The position numbers were made by a program, and so were the translations under genes. Shown here one piece after another: positions 2,873 through 43,935 of a DNA stretch of 64,000 nucleotides; the first letter of the stretch is position 1, and each line of letters opens with the position of its first letter. Source of the stretch: Candidatus Omnitrophota bacterium (GTDB lineage Bacteria; Ratteibacteria; UBA8468; B48-G9; DTJG01); NCBI GenBank assembly GCA_023819255.1, contig JAMWBU010000006.1, forward strand, positions 2,902 to 66,901, written 5' to 3'. The notes beneath the pieces are model-generated. The model was not told where the DNA came from, made no database searches, and was given only the letters and a program-made list of their open reading frames with translations.

Positions 2873-2895
2873 ACTTATTGTAAATAGGTCCTACT

Positions 2896-6439: not shown

Positions 6440-6442
6440 CCT

Positions 6443-9075: not shown

Positions 9076-9082
9076 AAATGAT

Positions 9083-17891: not shown

Positions 17892-18949
17892 TGGCTGATG
17901 TTCTTTCAGAAAAAATTATTCGTAAAATAAGGAAAGGAACAGTAATTCCGGCTCATCCCCTCGCGCTTACGGCAAGAAGAAAGCTCGATGAGAAAAGACA
18001 GAGGGCTTTAACACGTTATTACATTTCTGCAGGCGCCGGTGGAGTCGCTATTGGGGTTCACACAACACAGTTTGAGATCCATGACAAAAAGATTGGGCTT
18101 TATAAACCCGTTTTAGAGCTTGGTTCAGAAACGATTTCAGACTATGAACAGAAAAACAGACTGGATGAGCCAGTAATAAGGGTTGCAGGTGTTATCGGAA
18201 AAACATCGCAGGCAGTGGAAGAGGCGCAGATTGCAAAATCGCTGGGATATCATGCTGTGCTATTGAGTTTGTCTGCTTTCAAAAACAGCACCAATGAAGA
18301 AATGATTCAGCATGTTAAAACAATTGCCCGGATTATTCCGGTGTTTGGATTTTATCTGCAACCGGCTGTCGGCGGCCGAGTTTTGAATTATGATTTCTGG
18401 AGAAGATTTGCTGAAATTGAAAATGTGGTTGCAATAAAGATTGCTCCATTTAATAGATATTACACAATTGATGTTGTCAGGGCAATTGCTGATAGCGGCA
18501 GTGAAATCGCTTTATACACCGGCAACGACGACAGCATTGTTGTTGACCTTCTTACAAAATTCAATTTTGGAAATAGAAAACTTCGCATCGTTGGCGGGCT
18601 TCTTGGGCACTGGGCGTTCTGGACGCGCAAAGCAGTCGAACTTCTTCAAAAGATACATTTTTTAATAGAGAAGGAAGATGGAATTCCTTCTGAGATTTTA
18701 TCGCTTGGTATTGAAGTCACGGATTGCAACGCAGCGATTTTTGATGCAGCAAATGGGTTTGAAGGTTGTATTCCTGGAATTCACGAGATTTTAAGAAGAC
18801 AGGGAATACTTGAAGGTATCTGGACTCTAAAAGAAGACGAAGGATTGTCTTTGGGTCAGAAAGAAGAAATTGACAGAATTTACCATATGTATCCTCATCT
18901 AAACGACGATGAATTTGTGTCAGAGCATCTTGATAGGTGGTTGAGATAA
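17888..18949 (+). CDS. DapA/DHDPS-family (class I aldolase-like) protein
   Basis: TIM-barrel aldolase-like pattern (VAIGVHTTQFE, VVAIKIAP). ATGA overlap upstream. Confidence 0.35.
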   Translation: MMADVLSEKIIRKIRKGTVIPAHPLALTARRKLDEKRQRALTRYYISAGAGGVAIGVHTTQFEIHDKKIGLYKPVLELGSETISDYEQKNRLDEPVIRVAGVIGKTSQAVEEAQIAKSLGYHAVLLSLSAFKNSTNEEMIQHVKTIARIIPVFGFYLQPAVGGRVLNYDFWRRFAEIENVVAIKIAPFNRYYTIDVVRAIADSGSEIALYTGNDDSIVVDLLTKFNFGNRKLRIVGGLLGHWAFWTRKAVELLQKIHFLIEKEDGIPSEILSLGIEVTDCNAAIFDAANGFEGCIPGIHEILRRQGILEGIWTLKEDEGLSLGQKEEIDRIYHMYPHLNDDEFVSEHLDRWLR

Positions 18950-21522
18950 CCTTTCGATTACAGAAAAAAATGGACAATATTTCGGGTTTAACAGAAACTG
19001 AGGCGCAGAGTCTTCTCAAGACCTGTGGTCATAATGAAATTCCATATTCTGGAGAAAGAAGTATTCTTATCATTGCCAGAAGCATAATTAAGGAACCAAT
19101 GTTTTTGCTTCTTGTTGGGTGCGGAATTATTTATCTTTTGCTTGGCAGTAAACTTGAAGCCCAGATGCTTTTGTGTTTTGTTCTTGTGATGATGGGCATT
19201 ACCTTTTATCAGGAGAGAAAAAGCGAAAAAGCTCTTCGATCCCTGAGGGATCTTTCAAGCCCGCGCGCAATTGTAATAAGAGATGGAAAGGAAAAAAGAA
19301 TCTCTGGCAGGGATGTCGTTTGTGGAGACATTGTCGTTTTGAAAGAAGGCGATAGAGTTCCAGCAGATGGATATCTTATTACCTGTAGCAATCTATATAT
19401 TGATGAATCTTTGATTACGGGCGAATCTGTCCCTGTAAGAAAAAAAATTCGTGATTCTAATGCTGAAGGCGTGGCAGATAAAGATAGCAGATGCAATGTT
19501 TTTGCAGGAGGTCTTGTGGTCAGGGGATATGGCTTAATGAAGGTTGAAAAAACTGGACAGCATACACTTATGGGAAAAATTGGTAAGTCCATTCAGTCCA
19601 TAGAACAATCCAGAACTCTTGTTCAGGTAGAGGTAGAAAAACTTGTGAGGATTTTTTCTATTTCAGGACTTTTTCTCTGTGTGCTGATTACTATTTCCTA
19701 TAGTTTGTTCGGTTATGGCTGGTTGCATGGAATACTCGCAGGACTTACCCTGGCAATGGCAATTCTTCCCGAAGAATTCCCGGTCATTCTTGCGGTTTTT
19801 TTTGCTCTTGGCGCGTGGCGGTTAGCCCGGCACAATGTTCTGACAAGAAGAGTTCCTGTTATTGAGACACTTGGCGCAACGACTGTTTTGTGTGTTGATA
19901 AAACCGGGACACTCACGACAAACCGTATGGAAGTCAACGGACTTTATGCAAACGGCGAACTTATTATTTTTGACAGACATTTGAAAAATCTTCCGGAATC
20001 CTTTCATCATCTGATCGAATTTGGAGTTCTTGCGAGTTTAGAAAAGCCGTTTGATCCAATGGAAAAAGCATTTCAGGTTTTTTTTGAGCAACATCTTTCT
20101 GCGACAGAACATTTGCACAATGACTGGGTTCTTATTCACGAATATCCGCTTTCTGAAGACATTGTGGCAATGTCCAATGTATGGAAATCTCCACGAAGCG
20201 ATGATTATATAATTGCTGTAAAAGGGTCTCCTGAAGCAATTATTGAGCTGTGCCACCTGAATGAAATAGAAATAGCACATCTTAACGGAATTATCGCGAA
20301 GATGGCTAAGGAAGGTTTAAGGGTAATCGGGGTTGCCTCTGCTGAATTCAAAGGTGGCAAAGACCTTCCTGACCAGCAACACGACTTCAATTTTGTTTTT
20401 GCTGGTTTTATCGGACTAATAGATCCATTGCGAGAAGAAATTGGTTTTTCTGTAAAACTTTGCCGTAGCGCCGGGATAAGAGTATTAATGATTACAGGCG
20501 ACTATTCTGAAACAGCGAAAAGTATCGCAAAAAAAATCGGTCTCGTTCCGTATGATAAAGTTGTCACCGGTCAACAGATTTCGGAACTTGACGATATTGA
20601 ACTATCGGAAATTATAAAAAAAGTTAATGTTTTTGCAAGGATAATGCCTGAACAAAAACTTAGAATTGTTAATATCCTGAAAAAGATGGGAGAGATTGTT
20701 GCGATGACAGGAGATGGAGTTAACGACGCGCCTGCTTTAAAGGCGGCTCATATTGGCATCGCAATGGGAGAAAAGGGGACAGATGTTGCAAGAGAATCCT
20801 CAGATATTGTTCTGTTAGACGATGATTTTTCATCAATTGTCAGGGGTATAAAAACTGGCAGGGCAATTTTTGATAATCTAAAAAAAGCGGTCTCCTATGT
20901 TATTTCCGTCCATATTCCTATTATTGGGATGTCTATTTTTCCTGTTTTTATGGGATTACCTCTTGTTCTTGGTCCTGTTCACATTGTTTTTCTTGAAATG
21001 ATTATAGACCCGGTATGTTCCATAGTTTTCGAAGCAGAACTTCCAGAGCAGGATTTAATGGAACGGCCACCAAGAAGAATAACAGAACATTTGCTGGACG
21101 GGAGAACTTTTTTTCTCAGTTTTCTTCAGGGGTTTGTTGTTCTTATTGTGGTATTGATAGTTTTTCTGTACGCTCTTGCCAGCGGGCACGATGAAACAAG
21201 ATCCAGAGCCATCACTTACATAACCCTGATTGTTGCCAATATATGTTTGATACTTACAAATCGTTCGAAAACAAGATTTGCCTTTTCGAAATCAAATTTC
21301 AAGAACAAAGCGTTGATCTTTGTGATAACAGGCACAATGGGTGTGCTTGTTTTAATCAATGCCACAAATTTTTTCAGAACTCTTTTCAATTTTGGCTCTG
21401 TCGACCTGCACGATGTTTTAATCTGTTTTATGTCAGGAGTTGCGAGCATCCTGTGGTTTGAGGGTCTGAAGTTTTTCAACCTCAGGAAAACAATTAAAAC
21501 AGTCCGCCAAGTTGTTCAATAG
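18937..21522 (+). CDS. cation-transporting P-type ATPase (P2-type, Ca2+/Mg2+-like)
   Basis: CVDKTGTLTTN phosphorylation motif, MITGD and TGDGVNDAPALKAAHIGIAMG hinge, 10 TM helices. Alternative ATG at 18970. Confidence 0.85.
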   Translation: MVEITFRLQKKMDNISGLTETEAQSLLKTCGHNEIPYSGERSILIIARSIIKEPMFLLLVGCGIIYLLLGSKLEAQMLLCFVLVMMGITFYQERKSEKALRSLRDLSSPRAIVIRDGKEKRISGRDVVCGDIVVLKEGDRVPADGYLITCSNLYIDESLITGESVPVRKKIRDSNAEGVADKDSRCNVFAGGLVVRGYGLMKVEKTGQHTLMGKIGKSIQSIEQSRTLVQVEVEKLVRIFSISGLFLCVLITISYSLFGYGWLHGILAGLTLAMAILPEEFPVILAVFFALGAWRLARHNVLTRRVPVIETLGATTVLCVDKTGTLTTNRMEVNGLYANGELIIFDRHLKNLPESFHHLIEFGVLASLEKPFDPMEKAFQVFFEQHLSATEHLHNDWVLIHEYPLSEDIVAMSNVWKSPRSDDYIIAVKGSPEAIIELCHLNEIEIAHLNGIIAKMAKEGLRVIGVASAEFKGGKDLPDQQHDFNFVFAGFIGLIDPLREEIGFSVKLCRSAGIRVLMITGDYSETAKSIAKKIGLVPYDKVVTGQQISELDDIELSEIIKKVNVFARIMPEQKLRIVNILKKMGEIVAMTGDGVNDAPALKAAHIGIAMGEKGTDVARESSDIVLLDDDFSSIVRGIKTGRAIFDNLKKAVSYVISVHIPIIGMSIFPVFMGLPLVLGPVHIVFLEMIIDPVCSIVFEAELPEQDLMERPPRRITEHLLDGRTFFLSFLQGFVVLIVVLIVFLYALASGHDETRSRAITYITLIVANICLILTNRSKTRFAFSKSNFKNKALIFVITGTMGVLVLINATNFFRTLFNFGSVDLHDVLICFMSGVASILWFEGLKFFNLRKTIKTVRQVVQ

Positions 21523-22840
21523 TTTTCTGCGCTTTTTTTACAGGGACAGATTGCGCGTCACATTTTTCATTCAGGCAAACAGAAGCAATTGCGCCTGCCG
21601 CATCTCCTGTCGCCATACATGTTGCCATAACCCTTGTTGCACCCATTGCCTTGTGGTCAGCGGAAATGCATCTTCCCGCCACAAGAAGATTTTTTGCTTT
21701 TTCTGGCATTAAACATCTTGACGGAATGCTGAACCAGTCATTATCAGGCGGGTACAGTTTGTCTTTTGAGGGCAGATAGTCCCTGTATTTATCGAGCATA
21801 ACACAATATTCAGATGTCTGGCATTCTTTATAACAAAGATGGGTATTGATCGTTCTTCCAAAAGGGCAGTGTATATCAATCCAGTATGTGCATCTTGCCA
21901 CGCTGTCGTCGTTTTTTCTTCCTTCAATGACATCCTGTTCTGTCAGGGTATACAGTCCTTTTATCTGTCTTGTTTCTCTTACCCCGGCATTGATATTAAA
22001 GGCAGAGATATAAGAATTTTCAAAACCAGGCACATTTTCCTTGAAAAATTTATAGATTTTGAATGTTTCTTTTCGAAGAAATATTTCGGCATTTGTTAGT
22101 TCTATTGCATTTGTTGCGTCGCCAGCATATCTTGTCATATTAAAGCTTCTTTCTCCTTTTCTTATTGTGCTTCCTTTTCCGCCGAGTCCTTCATTGAATA
22201 TTTTCAATTCGCCACTTTTTCTAAATTCAGAAAGCTTCCTTCTTGCTTCATCGATCGCCTGTTCTGTTAGTTTGTCTTCATCAATGCCAGCAATCTTAAA
22301 AATACTTCCCATTGATTCTGTTTTTTCGTCCTGGGGCCTGCCTTTTGTGCATTCAAATCCAGCGAAGTAAGCAATGTCGGCATCTCCTGTTGCGTCAATG
22401 AAAAATTTTCCTTCTATTTCCATCGTTCCGTTTTTGTTAACAACTTCTATAAAATCAATATGTCCTGAACTTACTTTTGCTTTTGAAAAATATGAGTGAT
22501 AAAGGAATTTTACACCTGCGTCACAGAGCACCTGTTCGGCAGCGTATTTCAGAATTTCAGAATCAAAGGAGATGCCATATTTTTTGAATACGTTTTCCCA
22601 CTTTTCGCAGCCACCGAGTTGTGCCATTTTTTCAACAAGAACCTTTAAAAACCCTGCAACCGCGGGTTCTTTTTCATTAAGGTAATGGCCGAGTATCGAG
22701 CCTATTATGCCTGTAGTTGCCATGCCTCCACAAAAACCGTATCTTTCCACCAGAAGAGTTTCAGCGCCTGATTTTGCCGCCGTCCAGGCAGCAGCCATTC
22801 CACCAGGTCCGGCTCCGACGACAACTATGTCTGCTTTCAT
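21494..22840 (-). CDS. FAD-dependent oxidoreductase (PF12831-like)
   Basis: VVVGAGPGGMAAAWTAAKSGAETLLVERYGFCGG dinucleotide-binding motif. 29-nt convergent overlap with the ATPase. Confidence 0.6.
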   Translation of the reverse strand: MKADIVVVGAGPGGMAAAWTAAKSGAETLLVERYGFCGGMATTGIIGSILGHYLNEKEPAVAGFLKVLVEKMAQLGGCEKWENVFKKYGISFDSEILKYAAEQVLCDAGVKFLYHSYFSKAKVSSGHIDFIEVVNKNGTMEIEGKFFIDATGDADIAYFAGFECTKGRPQDEKTESMGSIFKIAGIDEDKLTEQAIDEARRKLSEFRKSGELKIFNEGLGGKGSTIRKGERSFNMTRYAGDATNAIELTNAEIFLRKETFKIYKFFKENVPGFENSYISAFNINAGVRETRQIKGLYTLTEQDVIEGRKNDDSVARCTYWIDIHCPFGRTINTHLCYKECQTSEYCVMLDKYRDYLPSKDKLYPPDNDWFSIPSRCLMPEKAKNLLVAGRCISADHKAMGATRVMATCMATGDAAGAIASVCLNEKCDAQSVPVKKAQKTIEQLGGLF

Positions 22841-22872
22841 AATGAACTCCTTTTTTACAAATTTTTAGTATT

Positions 22873-22912
22873 ATAGCACAAAGTGCTATTTGTTTTTTGA
22901 ATGTGATATAAT
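22873..22912. promoter_or_regulatory. perfect 6-3-6 palindrome TAGCACaaaGTGCTA plus extended -10 (TGaTATAAT) in a divergent intergenic region
   Basis: IR at 22873-22887. TGATATAAT at 22904-22912, 35 nt before the ATG at 22947, with an AAAGGAGGG SD. Confidence 0.45.
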
Positions 22913-22946
22913 CAATTAAGAAGGTTTTTTTTAAAAAGGAGGGCAC

Positions 22947-25541
22947 ATGAAACTAAAAAAGACTGCAATACTTACAGTGCTGTTGGCTTTCTATTGTTTT
23001 GCTGGTGTTAATATGAGTGGCAGGGTTTCTGACATTCAAAACGGTCAGGGAATTGCTGGTGCAACAGTATCCATCGTCGGAACAGGATTTTCTTCCACTA
23101 CTGACAGTCAGGGGAATTTTACAATATCAAATGTTCCGGCTTATTCCACTGGATTTCAGTTTAAAGCAAGCAAAACCGGTTATGTCGACACATACACTCA
23201 GCTTGGGAATTCAGGAGAAATGGATGCGAATGATATTACTTTTCCCCTGATTTCAAACACACTGTACGGCAATTTGCACAATCAATTATATGGTGGCATT
23301 GCCCATACAAGCGGTAAAGCGGATATTTTTGGTAGGGTTGGTAATGAGTACACTGGAGTGTCCGGGGTTGTTATAACTGCCAGATATATCGACAACAACG
23401 CAAATGCTGGAACTATTAGATATGTCAACGCAAGCAATATGCCTGATGGTTCATTAACATCAACATCTTCAAATGGAGTTTTCATTGCCTATAATGTGGA
23501 TCCTTACAGACCAATAAAGATAACAGGAACAAAAGCCGCAAGTTATTTTTCTTCCTGTGTTGCAATTTGTTATCCTGACAAAGTCACTGTCGGCGGAATT
23601 GAGCAGGTCGACAGTTTACTTCAACTTTCAGGAAAGGTTGGTTGGGATGAAAACCCTGTTTCAGGAGTGACAGTTTCAATCCCTGGCACTTTGAGTTCAA
23701 CGACAACCGGAACTGATGGTTCATTCAATATATCTTTTAATCCTGTAAACTACGGCGTACTCAAATTTTCAAAGTCAAACTATGTTGACACATATTTTTC
23801 AGAAAGAATAGACGAAGATGAAGGAAACAGGAAACAGGGCGATGATGAAGAAGAGAATGAATTTTTCATTATTCCTCAAACTGATTATACAGGGTTGTTG
23901 AATCAGCTTGGAAGGTCGCACATTAATGGTAAAGGAGATATTGTAATAGAGCTTGAAACAATCAATGAAATGAATGTGGCTGGAGCAAAAATAACCCTTT
24001 ATGATAAAAATGGCACAAAGCTCAATCCAGATATCTTATATTTTGATGAAGAAGGTATGCCTGCAACTGGTTTAAATGAAACCACCAGCGAAAGTCAGTG
24101 TCTGATTTTAAATCTTGACCCTGGATATTATTTTATTGCTGCGGAGAAATCAGGTTGTGAATTTTCAAGAAATACAGTTTTTGTTTTTGCCAATGGCATA
24201 ACCAGCGCTCCAAGAATAATTGGACTCCCTCCGATACCTGAAATTATCAAAGCAAAAGCAGAGGACATTCCTTCCGCAAATATCAGCAAGAGCGCTCAAA
24301 ATGTGCCAATGCTTGCTTTTATGTTCCATCTTAACAAGTGGGAAACAGATGAAAGCGTGATTTTTGACAGCATTATTGTAACAGCGAAAGGTACGGGAAA
24401 TATCTCGACAGCGCTTTCAAGCGCAAAGCTTTATCTTGACGCAGACAACAATGGCACCTATGAAACAGAGGTGTCGACAGGAACAATTTCAGGAAATAAA
24501 ATCACATTTAAAAATATCAATAAAGAGATGGATATAGGCTTGAATCAGAGATATCAGGTTGTTTTCAATTTCAATGGAACAGCCTCTATCGGGCAGACCT
24601 TTGGAGTTGATATTCTTAAAAACGCTGATGTTTACAGCCATACAAAAAATACAGGCATTTCAGTAACCTGTGATGGCTGGACGGTTGAAGGAAATCTGAT
24701 GACGATTGCCCAGGTTTATCCACCCTCAAAACCCAGCAATTTTTCACCCGCAAATGGAGCAACACAAGTTAATCCTCTATCATATGTATTGCAGTCGAGT
24801 CCGTTTAACCCGGGTCAGGGCAGCAATGTTCACAGTTCTTCGCAATGGATGATGTGGAAGGATGGAGAAACAGAGGAAACCTTTACCTGGGATAGTGGAA
24901 CAAACACAATAAATCTCACATCTGTTTCAACACCTGTCTTGTTAGAGGGTTCCACAAAATACTGGTGGAAGGTACGGCATCAAAATGGAGATAATATCTG
25001 GAGTGATTGGTCAGATGCGACATACTTTACGACAGCGCAGGGTGGAATTACACCTGCAGGCAAACCGAGCAATCAATCGCCCGAAGATGGGCAAACAGAT
25101 GTTCCATTGCCGGTAGTGTTAACAGGGAGCCAGTTTTCACCGGGTAACTCTGTAGTTCATGCTGCTTCTCAGTGGCAAATTTACCTCGACACCAAGAATG
25201 TAAATCCTGTTTTTGATTCAAAAAGGGATGGAAATAATCTCACCTCAATTACAGTTTCAGGACTTTCATACAATACTCAATATCTGTGGAGAGTCAGGTA
25301 TCAGGATGGAAACGGCGCGTGGAGCCAGTGGAGCGAGTTTACCAGTTTTGAAACAAAAGAGGGTATGAAGGGCGATTTAAATCACGATGCCGAGGTTGAC
25401 ATAAGAGATGTAATACTTTGTTTAAGGATGGCAATTGATCTTGATCCTGTTGATCCTGGTCTTGCAGATATGAATGAAGATGGACAGGTTGATATTTTAG
25501 ATGTCATTTTAATTCTGCGAAAAGCAATTGACCTGGATTAA
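22947..25541 (+). CDS. secreted multidomain protein: signal peptide, CarboxypepD_reg-like beta-sandwiches, two tandem FN3-like repeats, C-terminal type-I dockerin
   Basis: MKLKKTAILTVLLAFYCFA signal peptide. GRVSDIQNGQGIAGATVSIVGTG is CarboxypepD_reg-like. Two FN3-like repeats (...YWWKVRHQNGDNIWSDWSDATYFTT and ...YLWRVRYQDGNGAWSQWSEFTSFET). C-terminal dockerin duplicated segments GDLNHDAEVDIRDVILCLRMAIDLD and DMNEDGQVDILDVILILRKAIDLD. Confidence 0.6.
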   Translation: MKLKKTAILTVLLAFYCFAGVNMSGRVSDIQNGQGIAGATVSIVGTGFSSTTDSQGNFTISNVPAYSTGFQFKASKTGYVDTYTQLGNSGEMDANDITFPLISNTLYGNLHNQLYGGIAHTSGKADIFGRVGNEYTGVSGVVITARYIDNNANAGTIRYVNASNMPDGSLTSTSSNGVFIAYNVDPYRPIKITGTKAASYFSSCVAICYPDKVTVGGIEQVDSLLQLSGKVGWDENPVSGVTVSIPGTLSSTTTGTDGSFNISFNPVNYGVLKFSKSNYVDTYFSERIDEDEGNRKQGDDEEENEFFIIPQTDYTGLLNQLGRSHINGKGDIVIELETINEMNVAGAKITLYDKNGTKLNPDILYFDEEGMPATGLNETTSESQCLILNLDPGYYFIAAEKSGCEFSRNTVFVFANGITSAPRIIGLPPIPEIIKAKAEDIPSANISKSAQNVPMLAFMFHLNKWETDESVIFDSIIVTAKGTGNISTALSSAKLYLDADNNGTYETEVSTGTISGNKITFKNINKEMDIGLNQRYQVVFNFNGTASIGQTFGVDILKNADVYSHTKNTGISVTCDGWTVEGNLMTIAQVYPPSKPSNFSPANGATQVNPLSYVLQSSPFNPGQGSNVHSSSQWMMWKDGETEETFTWDSGTNTINLTSVSTPVLLEGSTKYWWKVRHQNGDNIWSDWSDATYFTTAQGGITPAGKPSNQSPEDGQTDVPLPVVLTGSQFSPGNSVVHAASQWQIYLDTKNVNPVFDSKRDGNNLTSITVSGLSYNTQYLWRVRYQDGNGAWSQWSEFTSFETKEGMKGDLNHDAEVDIRDVILCLRMAIDLDPVDPGLADMNEDGQVDILDVILILRKAIDLD

Positions 25542-26913: not shown

Positions 26914-27182
26914 TTTGCCTCCTTGTTATCATCTTTTCCGCAAAGATTATACCCTGATTCTCCTTTTTTGTGAAGACTTCCGCAAAGGGGACATCTTGAT
27001 ATTTGATTCCCGGAACTATCAATATAGAGGTGAAAACATAACGGACACTCCCATAAATAGTTTTCTTTTCTTAAAGAGAAATTGCTTTTTTTCTTTGCTT
27101 CTTTATAAATCCATAAAAAAAGAATCAGAAGGGCTAAAAAAAGATAACCAGTAACCGCAAAAGTAAGTTCTATTTTTATCAT
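26910..27182 (-). CDS. small membrane-anchored zinc-ribbon protein (CPLC...CPLC)
   Basis: N-terminal TM helix followed by ECPLCFH...RCPLCGS. ATGA overlap on both sides. Confidence 0.35.
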   Translation of the reverse strand: MIKIELTFAVTGYLFLALLILFLWIYKEAKKKSNFSLRKENYLWECPLCFHLYIDSSGNQISRCPLCGSLHKKGESGYNLCGKDDNKEAK

Positions 27183-27886
27183 TTAAGCCTGAATTTTAGC
27201 GTTACAATTGCCCAGACATTTATATCTTTATCAATTTTTGCAAATCGCCATTTTTTAATGGCTTCTTCTGCGATAATGTCAAGTTTTCTATATCCGCTTG
27301 TTTCAACAATGTCAGTCGCTGACACAAAACCGTCTTTGTTTACCCATATCTTGATCCGCACATTTGATTCAATGCTTTGTTGTTCTGCCCAGAAAGGATA
27401 TTCAGGGATCGTTTTTGATATAACAGGTCTTGTTCCTCCAGGTCCGGATATTTCAAATTCTTCTCCCTCCACTTTAATATTTGGCAGGGTTTCCATTTCC
27501 GGCCGGCCTTCAGTTGTTTGCGGGGTGGTTTCGGTTATTCTCGGCACAGGCAATTCCCAGTTGACATTATCCAGTTTTTCAGCAGTTAGCAGCGGAGTTT
27601 TCTGGATGCCGATAGAAATTTCTTTTTCGATTCTTCCGACCTTTTGCATCGATATGTCTATCTTTTGTTTTTCAATTATCCTTGTTGAGGGTAGATCTGG
27701 CGAAGCTTTTGTTAAATAAGCGTTCGAGATATTTGTTTTTGCTTCCTGATACAAATACACCAGATAATATGGCGGTTTTTCAACTTTTGCAGGAAGTACT
27801 AAACTCAAAACCGGCAGTATCAGAATATGTGCACCAAGACAGACTAAAAATATTCTTAAAAGGTTTCTATTGCTGGATTCCATCAT
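27179..27886 (-). CDS. tonB: TonB-family energy transducer
   Basis: N-terminal TM anchor, Pro/Glu-rich linker and a C-terminal TonB_C-like domain. Follows exbD. Confidence 0.65.
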   Translation of the reverse strand: MMESSNRNLLRIFLVCLGAHILILPVLSLVLPAKVEKPPYYLVYLYQEAKTNISNAYLTKASPDLPSTRIIEKQKIDISMQKVGRIEKEISIGIQKTPLLTAEKLDNVNWELPVPRITETTPQTTEGRPEMETLPNIKVEGEEFEISGPGGTRPVISKTIPEYPFWAEQQSIESNVRIKIWVNKDGFVSATDIVETSGYRKLDIIAEEAIKKWRFAKIDKDINVWAIVTLKFRLK

Positions 27887-28293
27887 TGTTCGGAAACAGG
27901 CATTGTTGCGATCGCAATCTTTGATATGCCGGCGACTCTTGCAATGTCCATCACGCTAACAATTTTTCCATGCGGTGTTTTCACATCGCCCTTTATAATA
28001 ATAATGATATTTTTTGATGTTTCATTAAATTTTCTCAAAAACTGCTCGAGTTGTTGAGGGGAAACCTGTTTTTCTCCCAGAAATATGATGCCTTCAGCTG
28101 AAACGCTGATGAAAACTTCATTTTTCTCAATGCTGTCGGTTGAAATAGCAGTTGGTAGATTTATTTTTATGCCAGGTTGCATTATGAAGCTTGATGTCAG
28201 CATAAAGTAAACCAGCAACTGAAGAATCACATCAATCAGTGGTGCCATATTTGTCTGACCTTTGAAGATTTCATACCTTTTTGGAAATCTCAT
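27883..28293 (-). CDS. exbD: biopolymer transport protein ExbD/TolR
   Basis: 136 aa, single TM. Pattern FISVSAEGIIFLGEKQVSP...IIIKGDVKTPHGKIVSVMDI. Confidence 0.85.
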   Translation of the reverse strand: MRFPKRYEIFKGQTNMAPLIDVILQLLVYFMLTSSFIMQPGIKINLPTAISTDSIEKNEVFISVSAEGIIFLGEKQVSPQQLEQFLRKFNETSKNIIIIIKGDVKTPHGKIVSVMDIARVAGISKIAIATMPVSEQ

Positions 28294-28925
28294 TTTATTT
28301 CCTCTTCTTCGGACCTCAAAAAGAGCAGAATGTCCATCATTCGGGATGTTGCCCGTTCCATGTCGTTGATCAAGCCATTAACCCGTGAAACAAGATAATT
28401 ATATCCAAGATAAGCCGGGATACTTACCACAAGTCCTGCGACAGTTGTGATCAGTGCTTCCCATATGCCACGCGCCAAATCTGTTGGATTTACAAGACCT
28501 GATTTTGCTTCTATCACCATAAACGCCTTAATCAATCCTGTAACAGTGCCCAGCAGTCCAAGCAGGGGAGCGACGGTTGCAATTGTTGCAAGGACTCCAA
28601 GATATTTTTCAAGATACGGGATAATCTGGTTAGCTTCATCCTGAATATTTTCTTTTATGACTTCAGGAGGCTTGTCAGATTTTACCAGGGCTCTGTAGAC
28701 CAATCTTGCAACCGGTCCTGGAGTATTTTCACAAAGTTCAAGTGTCTCCCTTATTTTTCTCTTTTTCATTTTTTCTTCCACACTGCCGATAAACTTCTCA
28801 GTGTCCACTTCGGATTTTCTCAGCGCGATAAGTCGTTCAATAATTACCGCCAGTGTCAGAGCGCCGCAGATAATAATCGGGATCATCAGCCATCCACCAC
28901 GAATGACAAATTGCCATAAACTCAT
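28290..28925 (-). CDS. exbB: MotA/TolQ/ExbB proton-channel protein
   Basis: 211 aa, three TM helices. LGLLGTVTGLIKAF motif. Confidence 0.85.
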   Translation of the reverse strand: MSLWQFVIRGGWLMIPIIICGALTLAVIIERLIALRKSEVDTEKFIGSVEEKMKKRKIRETLELCENTPGPVARLVYRALVKSDKPPEVIKENIQDEANQIIPYLEKYLGVLATIATVAPLLGLLGTVTGLIKAFMVIEAKSGLVNPTDLARGIWEALITTVAGLVVSIPAYLGYNYLVSRVNGLINDMERATSRMMDILLFLRSEEEEIK

Positions 28926-28952
28926 AATATACCCCCGTGTATTTTTACTAAT

Positions 28953-30383
28953 TTACCATCTTGCCTGAAAACCCGCAATGAAATCAAATGGTCTGCCTGG
29001 ATAACCAGGCGCTATTTCGTAGTCATTGCCCAGAATATTGTTAAATCTGAAAAACAGTTTCAGATCAGGTGTAACATTGTATGAAATTGCTGTTGAAAAA
29101 ATGGTGTATCCTTTCACTTTTTCACTGTCAAAAATCTGGTTTCCCTCATATATTAATTGAAAATCAGAACTTAACTTTCCTTCAACAAACCCTGCTTTGA
29201 AATAACTGGTGCTTTCAGGAAATCCGGATTTTTTTTTGTTCTGATTAAAGCGGAAGTGACCTGATTCAATATAGAATTTTTCAAATTTCTTTGATAGTGT
29301 AAAACCTGTCATATTTGTAAAATTGTCTTTAAGAACCGAAGGTTCATAAAGGTTATCATTATCTATGTCAAGCCAATGATAGCCCAGTTTTTCATATGAG
29401 ATCTGGCCTTCTATTGAGAAATCAACGCCTGTTATTTTTCCATAAAATCCAGCATAAATGGAATAAATTTCTTCAGGAGGAAGGAAAACATTCTTCATAT
29501 CAAGATGGGGCTGTTCTCCAGCAATCTTCCATAAATCAGGGAAAGAGAAAGTGCTCGAAAACCCTGCTTGAAATTTTGTTCCATCTTTCTCAACCTGAAA
29601 ATTTGCAGAAGGTAAAACCCTGATCTCATCTCCAATATTTTTTATCGTGATTGCTACAGCAAGGTTTTCATTACGATACTGGCCTGATAAATCGACGATT
29701 CTATTCTTTTCATCAGCAAATTCGTTAAATCCCAATTCCGCGTTAAAATCAAATTTTCCAATTTTATTGTTCAAAATAAAAAACACGCCTGTTTGTTCAA
29801 GCTCTCCAAGCGAATTTTTTGTTCCAGCAAATGTGATTCTGTAATCCTGCTGTTTCAAAATTAGTTTTGTGTCAGTTGTTACAGTGTGCTTCTTTTTATA
29901 AGTCAAAAAACCACCTGGAGGAGAAACTTCTTTTATACAGTTCCAGAGATCAAAAGCAAAATCTATATTTTCAGCAAAAGATTTTTGAATATGGGCTTCA
30001 ATGATATTTTTGCCATCGCGGCGTCTGTAGGAGTTGTCATGCAATGCAGAAAGATTCAGGTGCCACCCCGGATAATTTAATAAAATGTCAGATGATATGT
30101 ATCCGAATTTGCCTGCGCATACGGTCAATTCCTTGAAATTTTTGGTGCCAACATCTGCAACTTTTTCATTCTTTGTCGAAGTGGGTTTTTTTAGATATTG
30201 TTCGGGAATTCCGGGGGTATGCGGGAAATTAATCTGAAACTGGTGTGGGTAGAAGAAAACAGGTGTTTTATAAATGTTTCTATCGCTTCCAGTCACAACA
30301 GTTTCAGGGATTTCAATGTTCTGTCCATATATCAGACTTGATGAGATCAAAAAAAACACTGCAAATGTAAAAAGGCATTTCAT
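28953..30383 (-). CDS. outer-membrane beta-barrel protein with N-terminal TonB-box-like motif
   Basis: Signal peptide, ETVVTGSDRNIY right after the cleavage site, alternating amphipathic strands, C-terminal FQARW aromatic end. Only 476 aa, so shorter than classical TonB-dependent transporters. Confidence 0.5.
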   Translation of the reverse strand: MKCLFTFAVFFLISSSLIYGQNIEIPETVVTGSDRNIYKTPVFFYPHQFQINFPHTPGIPEQYLKKPTSTKNEKVADVGTKNFKELTVCAGKFGYISSDILLNYPGWHLNLSALHDNSYRRRDGKNIIEAHIQKSFAENIDFAFDLWNCIKEVSPPGGFLTYKKKHTVTTDTKLILKQQDYRITFAGTKNSLGELEQTGVFFILNNKIGKFDFNAELGFNEFADEKNRIVDLSGQYRNENLAVAITIKNIGDEIRVLPSANFQVEKDGTKFQAGFSSTFSFPDLWKIAGEQPHLDMKNVFLPPEEIYSIYAGFYGKITGVDFSIEGQISYEKLGYHWLDIDNDNLYEPSVLKDNFTNMTGFTLSKKFEKFYIESGHFRFNQNKKKSGFPESTSYFKAGFVEGKLSSDFQLIYEGNQIFDSEKVKGYTIFSTAISYNVTPDLKLFFRFNNILGNDYEIAPGYPGRPFDFIAGFQARW

Positions 30384-32026
30384 CTGGTTTTATAAGTTGA
30401 TAAATCCTGTTTTGCTTTTTGTGCCCAAACAGTTTTCGGAAAAGCGGCGAGGAGTTTCACATAATATGTTTGCGCATCTTTTATTCTGGATTTTTCTATG
30501 TTGATTTTGACAAGTATGTAAAGAGCCTCAGCGGCGAAGATGCTTTTTCTATCTATGTTTTTCAATATTTTTTCGCTTTCGTCAATGTTTCCAGTAAGAT
30601 AAAGAATTTTTGCATTCAAAAACAAAAGATCCGAATTCCTGCTGGATTCCATTTTTTTAAGGTAACTATTAGCAACATCTATTCCGTCTGTATTCAGGAT
30701 CTCATTGATAAAAATTATTCCTTCTGTCAGAATGAAGTTGTCTTCAGGGTAGATTTCCAGCATCTTGGTAAAAAATTTTTTCATTTTTTCTCTGTCACCC
30801 GAATCCTTGTAAAAGCCGTAAATTGCTTTGAGCACCTGAACAGGCAGAGGATAATCAGGATTCTGGTTGGCTAAAAATTCCCATATATTTATAGCCTGCT
30901 GTATTTTATCGCTATTATAAAAAGCCAGACCGAGTGTGTACATCACATCCGGGTCACTTGTATTTTTCAGATATTCGGAAAAAATCTCTATGGCATTTTC
31001 ATATTGTTTCTGGTTGAAATAGATATACCCAATCTGCAATTTTGTTTTTAGAAGCATTTCCTGGTTTGTTGCGGATTGCAGTATTTTTTCATACCAGCCA
31101 ATTGCCTGGTCTTTTCTGTCTTCCAATTCAGAAATTTTGCCAAGTTCCCAGAATGAACGAATAAGAATTTCATTATTCTTTGTGGTTTTTATAATGGCTG
31201 TGAGCAGGCTCTTTGCTTCTTTATACTTATTATTTCTTTTGTATATGAGCGCTTTTTGCAATTTTGCCCATTCCGCCTGTGGAGAACCAGAAAATTTTGA
31301 TATTACACTGTTATAATACCTTTCACTTTCAGAATAGTTTTTCATATTGAAAAAGCAATCCCCGATTTTCAAAAGTATTTCCGGCTCAATTTTTTGATTC
31401 CTGAAGTAAGTTAGGGAGTTCAGAAAATTCTCGACCCCTTCGGCAAAATTGTTTTCCTGATAAAGTATCAGCCCTCGGTAATATTCTATTTCATGGTTAA
31501 TACCCGGTTCAGAAAATACCTTTTCCATTTCATCAAGAATTTTTTTTGCCGCAGAGATGTCGCCAGATGCAATTTTTTGACCTGCTTCGTTAAGAAGCAT
31601 ATATCCCATATTTTTTTCAATTTCAGGTTCTCTGCCATAAACCGGCAATCCTTCTTTATATGTTTTCAATGCTTCATAGAGCATGTTTAAAAACATTTTG
31701 AGCGTTAATGTATACTTCCAGACATCATGATTGTATCTGGAATCCGGAAAAATCTTTGTGAATTCCTCAAACTTTTCAAGCGATTTATCGTATTTTTTTA
31801 ATTTGAGAAGGTTTATTCCGTAAAGAAAAAGAGCGTATTGATTCTTTTTAATTTCTGTTTTTTCAAAGTATTTATCAAGGAATTCCAGAGATATTTCATA
31901 AAACCCTTCATTGAAAGCAATAACAGCGCAAGTGAAGGGATCATCCTGATCTGCATTTTCTTGAGGGTATGCATTAAGTGAAAAGATAACAACTGATATT
32001 ATTAAAAGAAGTCCTTTTAGTTTCAC
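30380..32026 (-). CDS. secreted TPR-repeat protein
   Basis: Signal peptide plus many 34-aa TPR-like repeats. GTG start. First gene of the TPR-OMP-exbBD-tonB operon. Confidence 0.7.
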   Translation of the reverse strand: MKLKGLLLIISVVIFSLNAYPQENADQDDPFTCAVIAFNEGFYEISLEFLDKYFEKTEIKKNQYALFLYGINLLKLKKYDKSLEKFEEFTKIFPDSRYNHDVWKYTLTLKMFLNMLYEALKTYKEGLPVYGREPEIEKNMGYMLLNEAGQKIASGDISAAKKILDEMEKVFSEPGINHEIEYYRGLILYQENNFAEGVENFLNSLTYFRNQKIEPEILLKIGDCFFNMKNYSESERYYNSVISKFSGSPQAEWAKLQKALIYKRNNKYKEAKSLLTAIIKTTKNNEILIRSFWELGKISELEDRKDQAIGWYEKILQSATNQEMLLKTKLQIGYIYFNQKQYENAIEIFSEYLKNTSDPDVMYTLGLAFYNSDKIQQAINIWEFLANQNPDYPLPVQVLKAIYGFYKDSGDREKMKKFFTKMLEIYPEDNFILTEGIIFINEILNTDGIDVANSYLKKMESSRNSDLLFLNAKILYLTGNIDESEKILKNIDRKSIFAAEALYILVKINIEKSRIKDAQTYYVKLLAAFPKTVWAQKAKQDLSTYKTR

Positions 32027-35590: not shown

Positions 35591-36355
35591 TTATTCTCCT
35601 GATTTTATAATGTGAAAACCCTGGTCGGTTCTCACTACTTTTTCAAGTACCTGGTCGGGCTTCATTGAAAAAAGAATTTCCTCCAGTTCAGGCATCAATT
35701 GGCCCCGTGAAATCATTCCAAGGTCTCCGCCTTTGTCCTTTGAAGAACTTATTGATTCTTTTTTTGCTATTTCGGAAAAATCCGCTCCGTTTGAAAGCCT
35801 GCTGATAATGTCTCTTGCCTGTTGTTCTGTAGGCACGACTATTTCATAAAGATGAATTCGTTCCGGCACAAGAAAATCTTTAAGATTGTTGTTGTAGTAG
35901 TTTTTTATTTCCTCAGGGGAAATTTGCGCTTTGTTCAATACCTGGTCTGAAAGAAATTCTTTTATCAATAGATCTTTCCTGTAGTTCTCAATCGCTTTCT
36001 TAATATTTTTTCTATAATGCCTTTGGTATTTTTTTGCCTGTTGCGTCAAAAGTTTTTCTCCTATGAAATCTTCAAGAGCCTGCTGGGGAAATTGTTTTAC
36101 ATATTCCTGATAAAATTCGGGATATGTTGAGATTTTTTCTTTTAAGTCCGCCAGCGTAATAATATGGCCATTGACGACCGCAACGGCATTTTTTTTCAGA
36201 TATTGTCTATATGCAGAATATACTGCGATCACAATTATCACCGGTATTCCCAGCATAAGTATGAATTTTTTTCTTTTTTTCCTATCCTTGAAATAACTTC
36301 CTATTCTTACACACAACGTCCTGCACTGATTCTTGACTTTCTCTTTTATTTTCAC
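35591..36355 (-). CDS. parvulin-type peptidyl-prolyl cis-trans isomerase (PpiC/PrsA-like)
   Basis: C-terminal rotamase motif SIS...GGDLGMISRGQLMPELE...GFHIIK. Confidence 0.6.
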   Translation of the reverse strand: MKIKEKVKNQCRTLCVRIGSYFKDRKKRKKFILMLGIPVIIVIAVYSAYRQYLKKNAVAVVNGHIITLADLKEKISTYPEFYQEYVKQFPQQALEDFIGEKLLTQQAKKYQRHYRKNIKKAIENYRKDLLIKEFLSDQVLNKAQISPEEIKNYYNNNLKDFLVPERIHLYEIVVPTEQQARDIISRLSNGADFSEIAKKESISSSKDKGGDLGMISRGQLMPELEEILFSMKPDQVLEKVVRTDQGFHIIKSGE

Positions 36356-38664: not shown

Positions 38665-39283
38665 ATTTTCTTGTTTTCAAAACAAAAAATACTTTAATCT
38701 TGTCCGGCAATTTAGCACGACCAATTTGATTTTGCGTATTCCAGGATTTTTCCCATGTGTTCCCATCCCAATATAAAAATGAAAACGTTTTTACATTTTC
38801 AACCAGTGGTTGGCTGCCAGAAAACCCGGAATCAAAAGCATAGGTTTTCATTTTTCTGTCAAGCCTTTCAAACGATAATTTTATCTCATCGCCATCAAAA
38901 TATATTCCATACTTTCCAATATCTGAACCACTACCAGGCGCGTAAGGTGCAACATATTTTATTGCTGTTTCTGTTCCAATGAAGTCAATTCTAAAAGGCC
39001 CTTCAATATCCTGAATTATTGCTTCCTTCAGTGAGCGTCTTAAGAAAAAAGTAAAATCTCTTGCCGAAGCTATCATTGTTTTTTCTGCTGCTTGTTTTGT
39101 TGCTCTAAGGGTAATACTGGAAAAAATCATAACTCCTGAAATAAAAACAACAACCATAACAACCATTGTAATGAGGATTTCAACAAGGGAAAAAGCCCTT
39201 TTATCTTTGATGCAGGGCTGTAACAAAATCCTGGGTATACTTTTTCCCTTCGTAAGTTTTTGTAAGTTTAATATGAACCTCAT
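38609..39283 (-). CDS. prepilin-type N-terminal domain protein (GspJ/PilW-like), long leader
   Basis: Strong SD (AAGGAG, spacing 7) before the ATG at 39283. KRAFSLVEIL prepilin motif lies 29 aa in. The track ORF extends to 39448. Start uncertain, with a TTG alternative at 39226. Confidence 0.45.
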   Translation of the reverse strand: MRFILNLQKLTKGKSIPRILLQPCIKDKRAFSLVEILITMVVMVVVFISGVMIFSSITLRATKQAAEKTMIASARDFTFFLRRSLKEAIIQDIEGPFRIDFIGTETAIKYVAPYAPGSGSDIGKYGIYFDGDEIKLSFERLDRKMKTYAFDSGFSGSQPLVENVKTFSFLYWDGNTWEKSWNTQNQIGRAKLPDKIKVFFVLKTRKFEGKDIEKAFEEEIWMDR

Positions 39284-43934: not shown

Positions 43935-43935
43935 T

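What the first reader, a model, noticed from the sequence alone, without database searches (positions are those of the whole stretch)
22947..25541. Dockerin-bearing secreted protein with CarboxypepD_reg and tandem FN3-like repeats, with no cohesin nearby
A duplicated calcium-binding segment (D-x-N-x-D-x-x-V-D-I-x-D-V-I-L-x-L-R-K-A-I-D-L-D, twice) at the C-terminus is a textbook type-I dockerin. Upstream are two about 100-aa internal repeats with conserved W/Y (YWWKVRHQNGDNIWSDWS versus YLWRVRYQDGNGAWSQWS) and N-terminal CarboxypepD_reg-like domains. There is also an acidic DEDEGNRKQGDDEEENE linker. Dockerins outside clostridial cellulosomes usually anchor proteins to cohesin-bearing surface scaffolds. 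The partner and the cargo function are unknown here.
Basis: partly seen in the sequence, partly recalled or inferred. Interest (0 to 1): 0.55.

Follow-up and report, generated by a model that had tools for sequence, protein, structure and literature searches.

The report
Dockerin-tailed surface protein of Ratteibacteria
This gene encodes a secreted, enzyme-free chain of beta-sandwich domains ending in a genuine dockerin. Related uncultivated bacteria carry matching cohesin anchor proteins elsewhere in their genomes, so it is most likely a binding subunit plugged into a non-cellulosomal cohesin-dockerin surface complex.

Summary
Window 22947..25541 (+) is an 864-aa ORF with these parts:
- a signal peptide;
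- two CarboxypepD_reg domains;
- an acidic linker;
- two FN3-like repeats (44% identical, E=1e-22);
- a C-terminal duplicated dockerin (Pfam 23.3 bits against cut-off 22.9; family profile against solved dockerins E=3e-5).

No enzyme fold was found. The N-terminal half is an internal duplication. The "central region" is a single copy of a Pfam-less, probably Ca-binding, CBM-like beta-sandwich module. Elsewhere this module forms arrays of up to about 25-28 copies in giant proteins.

The 64-kb window holds no cohesin and no second dockerin. The same is true around five orthologues.

The same dockerin subtype (DISDVILCLRMAIGLD / DISDVILILRKAIGLD) sits on clostripain, subtilase, RCC1 and beta-helix proteins in relatives. 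Those genes lie in clusters with bona fide cohesins. Some of these cohesins head proteins that end in a CFI-box-CTERM anchor.

One Ratteibacteria MAG carries both an orthologue of this protein and such a cohesin locus.

Best reading: a non-catalytic binding or adhesin subunit docked onto cell-anchored cohesins encoded elsewhere in the genome.

It is a new member of a known kind and of moderate interest. The cohesin in this window's own genome, and the ligand, remain untested.

The parts
22947..23003 (+). Sec signal peptide (aa 1-19), with predicted cleavage after the conserved F-A of 'xFA|G'
   Evidence: It has a basic n-region (KLKK), a hydrophobic core, and F18/A19 nearly invariant in orthologues. 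The model shows a helix at 2-16 with low pLDDT. The cleavage site is inferred, not computed.
23013..23210 (+). CarboxypepD_reg-like domain 1 (aa 23-88)
   Evidence: Pfam PF13715 scores 57.3 bits and PF13620 scores 52.5 bits, both above cut-off. pLDDT is about 85-92. It also matches the X-module of CipA in 2b59_B / 5g5d_B, E=4e-5.
23226..23612 (+). Beta-sandwich domain (aa ~94-222), second half of duplicated unit 1
   Evidence: The model is all-beta with pLDDT about 85-92. No Pfam family matches. It is duplicated at aa 304-426.
23619..23804 (+). CarboxypepD_reg-like domain 2 (aa 225-286)
   Evidence: This is the second stretch of PF13620 / PF13715 (positions taken from orthologues). It aligns with domain 1.
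23808..23861 (+). Acidic disordered linker IDEDEGNRKQGDDEEENE (aa 288-305)
   Evidence: The sequence is shown. pLDDT is below 50 for aa 290-301. The acidic character is kept in orthologues. It lies at the position of a short loop in duplicate 1.
23856..24224 (+). Beta-sandwich domain (aa ~304-426), second half of duplicated unit 2; weakly prealbumin/SpaA-like
   Evidence: The model is all-beta with pLDDT about 77-91. The SpaA hit is weak (E=0.02, below cut-off). aa 21-222 against 225-426 are 34% identical, E=3e-12.
24273..24713 (+). Central module (aa ~443-589): a single copy of a Pfam-less beta-sandwich repeat family carrying a DxDxNG-type putative Ca2+ loop (LYLDADNNGTYE, aa 495-506)
   Evidence: No Pfam or NCBIfam hit. 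phmmer finds 251 representative proteins with up to 25-28 tandem copies. The AF2 model has pLDDT 91.6 and pTM 0.87. Foldseek's best matches are the N-terminal domain of Bacteroides GH33 sialidases, TM about 0.55. The loop matches Ca-type loops of S-layer protein EA1 and of dockerins.
24720..25037 (+). FN3-like domain 1 (aa ~592-697) with a WSDWS motif
   Evidence: The two repeats are 44% identical, E=1e-22. Pfam Ig_Rha78A_N scores 39.7 bits against 27.4. pLDDT is about 80-92. PDB profile hits fall on the WSxWS FN3 domains of cytokine receptors.
25044..25355 (+). FN3-like domain 2 (aa ~700-803) with a WSQWS motif
   Evidence: Same evidence as domain 1. Together with the dockerin it forms a cassette that also occurs on an S8 subtilase in L007 (34% identical over 177 aa).
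25368..25538 (+). Dockerin (aa 808-864): Ca loop 1 at D810/N812/D814/D818/D821 with helix 819-829; Ca loop 2 at D841/N843/D845/D849/D852 with helix 850-860
   Evidence: Pfam Dockerin_1 scores 23.3 bits against 22.9. The profile matches solved dockerins at E=3e-5. Loop and helix residues are invariant in orthologues. The model shows two helices. The same helix motifs occur on many different cargo proteins that lie next to cohesins.

Best explanation
The gene encodes a Sec-exported, non-catalytic, all-beta protein of a diderm Ratteibacteria-type bacterium. NCBI labels the organism 'Candidatus Omnitrophica'.

Its C-terminal, internally symmetric, Ca2+-dependent dockerin most likely docks it non-covalently onto a cohesin module of a cell-anchored scaffold protein encoded elsewhere in the genome. 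In relatives this scaffold has an N-terminal cohesin, a beta-sandwich stalk, choice-of-anchor U and a CFI-box-CTERM membrane anchor.

The rest of the chain acts as the cargo: two [CarboxypepD_reg + beta-domain] units, one Ca-loop CBM-like module and two FN3-like spacers. This cargo would be an extended binding or adhesin arm for a glycan or a cell-surface ligand. It would be displayed beside dockerin-bearing peptidases (clostripain C11, subtilase S8) and other cargo that share the same dockerin type.

Shown: the domain anatomy, the authenticity of the dockerin, the absence of an enzyme fold, the absence of a cohesin in the window, and the co-occurrence of this dockerin type with cohesins in the lineage.

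Inferred: the actual cohesin partner in this genome, outer-surface localisation, and ligand binding by the cargo.
For: Dockerin:
- Pfam score is above the gathering cut-off.
- The profile hits solved dockerins.
- The Ca-ligand positions and both helices are invariant across 13 orthologues of 60-71% overall identity.

No catalytic domain:
- Pfam and NCBIfam show only beta-sandwich families.
- The full-length model matches only strings of Ig/FN3 domains.
- The central module is CBM-like.

Cohesins in the lineage:
- L003/L008: a dockerin fragment 77% identical to the target's lies next to a 1000-aa cohesin protein with a CFI-box-CTERM.
- L004-L006: 4 cohesin genes (8 modules) lie next to 6 genes that end in a dockerin.
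- L007: a 46-57% identical homologue of the target's C-terminal half lies in one cluster with an S8-dockerin protein, a C11 peptidase, another dockerin protein and a 2-cohesin protein.
- These cohesins match solved cohesins at E=2e-13 to 1e-11.

Same-genome co-occurrence:
- Orthologue P0013 (JBMFLH010000085.1) and a cohesin / C11-dockerin / cohesin locus (JBMFLH010000047.1) are in one assembly, GCA_049971295.1.
- Neighbouring accession numbers link an orthologue and a C11-dockerin peptidase in three Ratteibacteria MAGs.

Shared dockerin type: dockerins on all these different cargo proteins keep the same helix motifs as the target. This is the pattern expected when they share cohesin partners.

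Envelope: the organism is diderm, with TonB/ExbBD, an OM barrel, LptA-like and SurA-like proteins, and a T2SS-like operon in the window.
Against: - No cohesin was found in the 64-kb window or within about 10 kb of five orthologues.
- The window's own genome could not be searched, so a partner there is assumed from relatives that are only 60-70% identical.
- The Pfam dockerin score is marginal for the single sequence.
- The dockerin part of the model has only pLDDT 51-65.
- The CBM-like similarity of the central module is weak (TM about 0.5-0.55, E about 2e-4), so ligand binding is speculative.
- How a dockerin protein or a CFI-box-anchored cohesin reaches the outer surface of a diderm cell is unknown.
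- No binding was computed or measured.
Confidence: 0.6

Rival explanations
1. Orphan dockerin. The C-terminal module is a Ca2+-stabilised EF-hand pair that does not bind a cohesin in this organism. It would instead mediate self-association or attachment to another envelope component such as LPS, polysaccharide or an S-layer. Many non-cellulosomal dockerins occur in genomes without cohesins.
For: There is no cohesin in the window or beside five orthologues. From my own knowledge of Peer et al. 2009, cited in PMC10066038, dockerin-like modules outnumber cohesins in non-cellulosomal genomes. Omnitrophota dockerin repeats have been interpreted simply as adhesins.
Against: The same dockerin subtype lies directly beside cohesins in several relatives, and it co-occurs with cohesins in a MAG that carries an orthologue. 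The putative cohesin-contact helices are invariant across unrelated cargo proteins. That pattern is hard to explain without a shared protein partner.
Confidence: 0.18
2. Structural surface-coat subunit. The protein would be a building block of an S-layer-like or fibrillar coat. The Ca-loop module and the beta-sandwich chain would mediate Ca2+-dependent lattice or fibre contacts, and the dockerin would only tether the coat to the cell.
For: The Ca-type loop of the central module matches loops in the B. anthracis S-layer protein EA1 (8opr, E=0.002). The same module builds giant multi-copy extracellular proteins, some with a T9SS sorting tail. The gene is single-copy, conserved and sits at a fixed genomic position.
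Against: The EA1 match covers only about 34 residues of a loop. No lattice-forming domain or S-layer family was detected. The target holds only one copy of the module. This rival overlaps with the best explanation as far as the tether is concerned.
Confidence: 0.12
3. Periplasmic envelope protein functionally tied to the neighbouring TonB-ExbB-ExbD / beta-barrel / TPR cluster, for example an accessory substrate-capture protein. CarboxypepD_reg domains commonly head TonB-dependent receptors.
For: The TonB/ExbD/ExbB/barrel/TPR cluster lies 1.6 kb downstream in the window and again downstream in L001. From my own knowledge, CarboxypepD_reg is typical of the N-termini of SusC-like receptors.
Against: The genes are convergently transcribed and separated by variable genes: peroxiredoxin; or flavodoxin and DUF2582; or methyltransferase and hydrolase. 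In L002 and L025 the downstream genes differ. The target has no plug or barrel domain. The dockerin links it to the cohesin system instead.
Confidence: 0.05

Closest known systems
Cellulosomal dockerin modules (e.g. B. cellulosolvens Cel48 Doc 2y3n_B, C. thermocellum Xyn10B 1ohz_B / CelS 1daq)
   Same: It sits at the C-terminus and is about 60 aa long. It has two duplicated 22-24-residue segments, each an EF-hand-like D-x-N-x-D-x-x-x-D-x-x-D loop followed by a helix. The near-identical helices suggest two-fold symmetry, as in dual-binding dockerins.
   Different: The cargo is not a carbohydrate-active enzyme. The host is a diderm candidate-phylum bacterium, not a Firmicute. The helix motif DISDVILCLRMAIGLD is specific to this lineage. 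The type (I, II or III) and the binding partner are untested.
Ruminococcus flavefaciens CttA / ScaE (a non-catalytic binding protein with a C-terminal dockerin, held by a single-cohesin, cell-anchored protein). This comparison rests on my own knowledge.
   Same: The logic matches: an enzyme-free protein made of binding-type beta modules, whose dockerin would attach it to a one-cohesin anchor protein on the cell (compare the architecture of P0290/P0308).
   Different: There is no sequence relationship in the cargo. The anchor here ends in choice-of-anchor U plus CFI-box-CTERM, not a sortase signal. The ligand is unknown. The target is not encoded in the cohesin gene cluster.
'Planctosome' hypothesis for Nemodlikiaceae (Planctomycetes), PMC6461901
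   Same: This is also a PVC-group bacterium with cohesin/dockerin proteins unrelated to cellulose breakdown. Dockerin-bearing peptidases plus a non-catalytic binding or adaptor protein would sit on a membrane-tethered anchor. In the present lineage the dockerin cargo includes C11 and S8 peptidases.
   Different: The peptidase families differ (C11/S8 here, M12B/M14 there). The anchors differ (CFI-box-CTERM here, LTD there). The domain sets differ. Both systems are only predicted.
Dockerin-type giant proteins and non-cellulosomal dockerins of Omnitrophota (bioRxiv 10.1101/2023.11.21.568195; PMC10066038)
   Same: These are neighbouring PVC lineages. Their dockerin / EF-hand repeats on extracellular proteins are interpreted as attachment devices. 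Ratteibacteria MAGs are often mislabelled as Omnitrophica.
   Different: The target is 864 aa and carries one terminal dockerin. It is not a protein of 30,000 aa or more with many internal dockerin repeats. According to the preprint, none of the 34 Ratteibacteria genomes it examined encodes a protein of 5,000 aa or more.
N-terminal CBM-like domain of Bacteroides GH33 sialidases (4bbw, 6mrx) and TTHA1873 (7wrk); compared with the central module only
   Same: Beta-sandwich fold. These are the best Foldseek matches, with TM 0.47-0.56 and E=2e-4 to 1e-3.
   Different: Sequence identity is only 8-15% and the rmsd is about 5 Å. The module has its own DxDxNG loop. It belongs to a separate repeat family with a period of about 165 aa and no Pfam model.

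Membership tests
Dockerin (Pfam PF00404 Dockerin_1) | Score at or above the curated gathering threshold | tested here: met
   23.3 bits against 22.9, E=7.2e-5, aa 808-856. This is marginal for the single sequence. The 12-sequence profile hits solved dockerins at E=3e-5.
Dockerin (Pfam PF00404 Dockerin_1) | Two duplicated ~22-residue segments, each a 12-residue Ca2+ loop with D/N at positions 1, 3, 5, 9 and 12, followed by an alpha-helix | tested here: met
   Loop 1 is D810/N812/D814/D818/D821 and loop 2 is D841/N843/D845/D849/D852. The segments are 17/24 identical, and these residues are invariant or nearly invariant in 13 orthologues. The model has helices at 819-829 and 850-860.
Dockerin (Pfam PF00404 Dockerin_1) | Ca2+-dependent binding to a cohesin module | not testable with these tools
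Biochemistry is required.
Dockerin (Pfam PF00404 Dockerin_1) | A cohesin encoded in the same genome | tested here: inconclusive
   None is present in the 64-kb window. One is present in the Ratteibacteria MAG JBMFLH01, which carries a 63% identical orthologue. The window's own MAG could not be searched.
Type I dockerin specifically | Groups with, and binds, type I cohesins | not tested
   Pfam's Dockerin_1 model is not type-specific. As far as I recall (not checked), the best solved match, 2y3n_B, is a dockerin bound to a type II cohesin. The lineage cohesins match solved cohesins from several scaffoldins; their types were not assigned.
CarboxypepD_reg (PF13620 / PF13715) | Score above the gathering threshold | tested here: met
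   52.5 bits against 32.3 and 57.3 bits against 32.2, with two stretches each.
Fibronectin type III (PF00041 fn3) | Score above the gathering threshold | tested here: not met
   17.0 bits against 25. The fold is FN3-like, and the related model Ig_Rha78A_N does pass (39.7 against 27.4). PDB profile hits fall on the FN3 domains of cytokine receptors.
Cellulosome component | Dockerin joined to a carbohydrate-active enzyme or a recognised CBM, in an organism with scaffoldins for plant cell-wall degradation | tested here: not met
   No GH, PL, CE or CBM family was found in the target and no enzyme fold. The lineage's dockerin cargo is mainly peptidases, RCC1 repeats and a beta-helix.
Cohesin (PF00963), considered for the central module | Cohesin sequence profile or nine-stranded jelly-roll cohesin fold | tested here: not met
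   No Pfam Cohesin hit. The lineage cohesin HMM gives only noise on the target or its orthologue. A cohesin structure appears only at rank 36 with TM 0.26.

The most novel reading that the evidence does not exclude
The protein is the ligand- or prey-recognition arm of an undescribed cohesin-dockerin surface machine in Ratteibacteria, a 'proteolysome'.

In this reading, single- and multi-cohesin scaffolds anchored by a CFI-box-CTERM on a diderm cell assemble several cargo proteins through one shared, lineage-specific dockerin type. The cargo would be clostripain- and subtilisin-type peptidases, RCC1 and beta-helix proteins, and this binding subunit.

Its central domain would be the founding member of a new Ca2+-dependent carbohydrate- or surface-binding module family. 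That family also builds giant adhesins of more than 5,000 aa.
Probability: 0.3. Interest if true: 0.65.

Novelty: new member of a known kind. Interest (0 to 1): 0.4.

Why it matters
Cohesin-dockerin assembly is best known from Gram-positive cellulosomes.

Here a candidate-phylum, diderm bacterium has one conserved dockerin type placed on peptidases and on this enzyme-free binding protein. Cohesins sit on membrane-anchored scaffolds.

This gives concrete, clonable cohesin/dockerin pairs for testing whether uncultivated PVC-group bacteria build protein-degrading or adhesive surface complexes. It also flags an unannotated repeat module for domain databases.

Tried and rejected
1. Enzyme in the 'central region'. 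Rejected: no Pfam or NCBIfam hit, and both the full-length and central-module models match only beta-sandwich, Ig or CBM-like structures.

2. Central module as a hidden cohesin, which would make a self-assembling cohesin+dockerin protein. Rejected.

3. Profile search of the 5.8-billion-protein set with the central-module alignment. It returned one hit and was wasted.

4. The best hits of the dockerin-profile search looked like additional dockerin proteins from the same MAGs. At least P0166 turned out to be the C-terminal fragment of an orthologue split across contigs, so I did not count it as an independent dockerin protein.

5. Linking the window's own MAG (protein MCM8821633.1) to a cohesin-bearing MAG by accession arithmetic. 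This failed because accession numbers do not run in step with WGS prefixes. The look-up of encoding contigs has no record of P0001.

6. The 10-module cohesin alignment A4 was too diverse for the genome scan. The 5-module alignment A5 worked.

8. The promoter/terminator scan around the gene gave nothing above the shuffled expectation.

9. Peer et al. 2009 (PMC3035643) is not held. Statements about that paper rest on my own knowledge and on papers that cite it.
Full report
**Observation**

Window 22947..25541 (+) is an 864-aa ORF with an ATG start and a GGAGG ribosome-binding site. It is identical to NCBI protein MCM8821633.1, 'carboxypeptidase-like regulatory domain-containing protein [Candidatus Omnitrophica bacterium]'. 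It has 12 orthologues at 60-71% identity, one labelled Candidatus Ratteibacteria. A preprint notes that Ratteibacteria genomes are often labelled Omnitrophica.

- Two CarboxypepD_reg stretches score above Pfam's cut-offs.
- The acidic linker spans aa 288-305 and is disordered in the model.
- The two FN3-like repeats are 44% identical over 107 aa, E=1e-22. They pass Pfam as Ig_Rha78A_N but not as fn3.
- The C-terminal duplicated segment scores as Dockerin_1 at 23.3 bits against a cut-off of 22.9.

**Anatomy beyond the finding**

The N-terminal half is itself a duplication. Residues 21-222 and 225-426 are 34% identical, E=3e-12. Each copy is a CarboxypepD_reg domain followed by a beta domain of about 130 aa. 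The acidic linker is an insertion in the second copy.

A full-length AlphaFold model built on 13 sequences has mean pLDDT 75.7. It is all-beta apart from the signal peptide, a few short helices and the two dockerin helices. Against the PDB it matches only strings of Ig/FN3 domains: contactins, Robo, cytokine receptors and the GhpA neck. No catalytic domain is detected by sequence or by fold.

The N-terminus is a Sec signal peptide with a conserved xFA|G site. The cleavage site is inferred.

Both FN3-like domains end in WSxWS. This explains the profile hits to class-I cytokine receptors.

**The central region**

Residues ~443-589 have no Pfam or NCBIfam match. An exhaustive phmmer search of 1.8 billion representatives found 251 proteins. 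Many are giant and hold up to 25-28 tandem copies with a period of about 165 aa. A 2,692-aa protein made of 14 copies has no Pfam hit at all. One other member ends in a T9SS sorting tail.

With 40 repeat units as the alignment, the module folds confidently (pLDDT 91.6, pTM 0.87) as a beta-sandwich.

Its best structural matches are the N-terminal CBM-like domain of Bacteroides GH33 sialidases and TTHA1873, with TM about 0.5-0.56. A cohesin appears only at rank 36 with TM 0.26, so the module is not a cohesin.

Its conserved LYxDxNxNG loop resembles Ca2+ loops of the S-layer protein EA1 and of dockerins.

Among 164 proteins examined, only the single-copy, target-like family carries the dockerin (18 proteins). 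None carries a cohesin.

**Is the dockerin real?**

The two 24-residue segments are 17/24 identical. Each has D/N at loop positions 1, 3, 5, 9 and 12, followed by a helix. These residues and the helix faces are invariant or nearly so in proteins that are otherwise only 60-71% identical.

A profile of the orthologues' dockerins hits solved dockerins: 2y3n_B at E=3e-5, then dockerins of R. flavefaciens and C. thermocellum.

I therefore accept the dockerin. 'Type I' is not established, because the Pfam model is not type-specific.

**Where is the cohesin?**

It is not nearby. An HMM built from 10 cohesin modules of this lineage finds nothing in the six-frame translation of the window (best E=0.86). 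The target is also the window's only dockerin. Pfam scans of 18 neighbouring or secreted window proteins show no Cohesin.

The gene stands alone. It diverges from an FAD-dependent oxidoreductase and converges on a peroxiredoxin. Five orthologous contexts keep this position without any cohesin.

The lineage, however, has cohesins:
- **L003/L008 ('Omnitrophota' MAG JAMWCC01).** A dockerin fragment 77% identical to the target's lies next to a cohesin protein. Its full-length relative P0290 (1000 aa) has a signal peptide, an N-terminal Cohesin domain (43 bits against 24.1), beta-sandwich domains, choice-of-anchor U and a CFI-box-CTERM (100 bits against 40).
- **L004-L006.** This cluster holds four cohesin genes with eight modules. 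They include a three-cohesin scaffoldin ending in a dockerin and a 227-aa cohesin+dockerin adaptor. It also holds dockerin-bearing clostripain (C11), RCC1-repeat, beta-helix and 112-aa proteins.
- **L007.** A 46-57% identical homologue of the target's C-terminal half lies in one cluster with an S8 subtilase-dockerin, a C11 peptidase, another dockerin protein and a two-cohesin protein.

These cohesins match solved cohesins at E=2e-13 to 1e-11.

A scan of GTDB species representatives with the cohesin alignment found 16 loci. One is JBMFLH010000047.1 of Candidatus Ratteibacteria KM4336-44, which carries cohesin (573 aa), C11-dockerin (655 aa) and a further cohesin cut off at the contig end.

The same assembly carries the target's orthologue P0013 on JBMFLH010000085.1. 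Neighbouring accession numbers also pair an orthologue with the C11-dockerin peptidase in three Ratteibacteria MAGs.

Dockerins on all these unrelated cargo proteins keep the motifs DISDVILCLRMAIGLD and DISDVILILRKAIGLD found in the target. In cellulosome producers, this kind of uniformity goes with shared cohesin partners (established knowledge).

**Mechanism proposed**

The protein is exported by Sec. Its dockerin folds around two Ca2+ ions and inserts into a cohesin of a cell-anchored scaffold encoded at a distant, conserved locus. In L010 and L016 that locus runs GT9, 108-aa gene, cohesin, C11-dockerin, cohesin anchor.

The 800-residue beta-sandwich chain projects as a non-catalytic binding arm. 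The Ca-loop CBM-like module is the most conserved cargo part, and the two FN3-like domains act as spacers next to the dockerin. The same FN3-dockerin cassette is found on the L007 subtilase.

Shown: the anatomy, the dockerin's authenticity, the absence of an enzyme fold, and the lineage-level cohesin co-occurrence.

Inferred: the partner in this genome, surface exposure on a diderm cell, and ligand binding.

Confidence is about 0.6. The rivals are an orphan dockerin (0.18), a surface-coat subunit (0.12) and a periplasmic partner of the neighbouring TonB system (0.05).

**Comparison with the known**

It works like a dockerin-bearing, non-catalytic cellulosome accessory protein such as R. flavefaciens CttA on ScaE (own knowledge). 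It also fits the concept of non-cellulosomal cohesin-dockerin complexes proposed for PVC bacteria. Examples are the 'planctosome' (PMC6461901) and the dockerin-bearing adhesins of Omnitrophota.

It is not a cellulosome component, since it has no CAZyme or recognised CBM. Its central module is neither a cohesin nor a member of any curated family.

**Verdict**

The protein is a new member of a known kind.

Added value comes from three points:
- a plausible class of cohesin partners in the lineage;
- a shared lineage-specific dockerin type, mostly carried by peptidases;
- an unannotated repeat module.

Interest is 0.4.

The main gap is that the window's own genome could not be searched for cohesins, and no binding was computed or measured.

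Noticed in passing
window 24273-24713 (aa ~443-589); proteins P0016-P0164: The central module belongs to a Pfam-less repeat family with a period of about 165 aa. It covers 251 representative proteins and reaches up to 25-28 tandem copies in proteins of 5.2-5.4 kaa. A 2,692-aa member has no Pfam hit at all, and one member ends in a T9SS sorting tail.
   Followed up: partly
window 23007-24224 (aa 21-426): The N-terminal half is an internal duplication of a [CarboxypepD_reg + ~130-aa beta domain] unit (34% identical over 175 aa, E=3e-12). The acidic linker is an insertion in the second copy.
   Followed up: yes
window 24999-25013 and 25320-25334 (WSDWS aa 685-689; WSQWS aa 792-796): Both FN3-like domains carry an intact WSxWS motif. 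The family profile hits class-I cytokine receptors in the PDB (leptin receptor, gp130, common beta chain) at E=6e-5 to 1e-2.
   Followed up: no
L004/L005/L006 (e.g. JAKPDB010000060.1), L007/L013, L010 (JAMWCD010000002.1), L016 (JBMFLH010000047.1): Relatives carry elaborate non-cellulosomal cohesin-dockerin gene clusters. They contain single- and multi-cohesin proteins, a cohesin+dockerin adaptor, anchors ending in choice-of-anchor U plus CFI-box-CTERM, and dockerin-bearing clostripain (C11), subtilase (S8), RCC1-repeat and beta-helix proteins. A conserved core runs GT9, 108-aa gene, cohesin, C11-dockerin, cohesin anchor.
   Followed up: partly
dockerins in L001-L025 (alignment): Whatever the cargo protein or genome, the dockerins keep almost invariant helices DISDVILCLRMAIGLD and DISDVILILRKAIGLD. 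Some have an insertion of about 13 residues (…QTYxSPYPDWL…) between the two segments.
   Followed up: partly
window 36352-50568 (-): This is a T2SS/type IV pilus-like operon. It has two GspE/PilB-like ATPases, a PilT-like ATPase and a PilC-like protein (these four identified by eye only), several pseudopilins, a 770-aa GspK-like protein with a lamin-tail-like stretch and a D-rich insert, and a 579-aa PilX-like protein with a weak dockerin/FG-GAP Ca-loop hit. T2SS-like loci next to giant adhesin genes have been reported in Omnitrophota.
   Followed up: no
window 27179-32026 (-); L001 14275-19641: A TonB / ExbD / ExbB / 476-aa beta-barrel / TPR cluster is conserved downstream of the target in the window and in L001. 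It is convergently transcribed and separated from the target by variable genes.
   Followed up: partly
between the FAD oxidoreductase and the target: L024 461-2933, L026 7443-9918, L002 7499-9654; absent at window 22841-22946: An ABC ATPase (313 aa) plus a 514-aa protein lie between the FAD oxidoreductase and the target in two orthologous loci. The pair is decayed into fragments in a third locus and absent in the window and in L001.
   Followed up: no
L001 662-8560 and L002 1-6085, compared with window 18937-22840: A block of FGGY kinase, RuBisCO-like protein, AP endonuclease 2 and 2-oxoacid dehydrogenase E2/E1 lies upstream of the FAD oxidoreductase in both relatives. In L001 it sits between the P-type ATPase and the oxidoreductase; L002 begins inside the block, so the ATPase is not seen there. 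The block is missing from the window, where the ATPase abuts the oxidoreductase.
   Followed up: no
L003 856-1595: The 50-aa 'dockerin protein' next to the cohesin in MAG JAMWCC01 looks like the C-terminus of a frameshifted or mis-assembled SBBP-repeat protein. It is probably not a stand-alone gene.
   Followed up: partly
window 1-13224 (+): This is a long co-directional run of genes that look, by eye only, like a surface-polysaccharide biosynthesis cluster: glycosyltransferases, a flippase-like membrane protein and an asparagine synthase-like gene. They were not scanned against family libraries.
   Followed up: no
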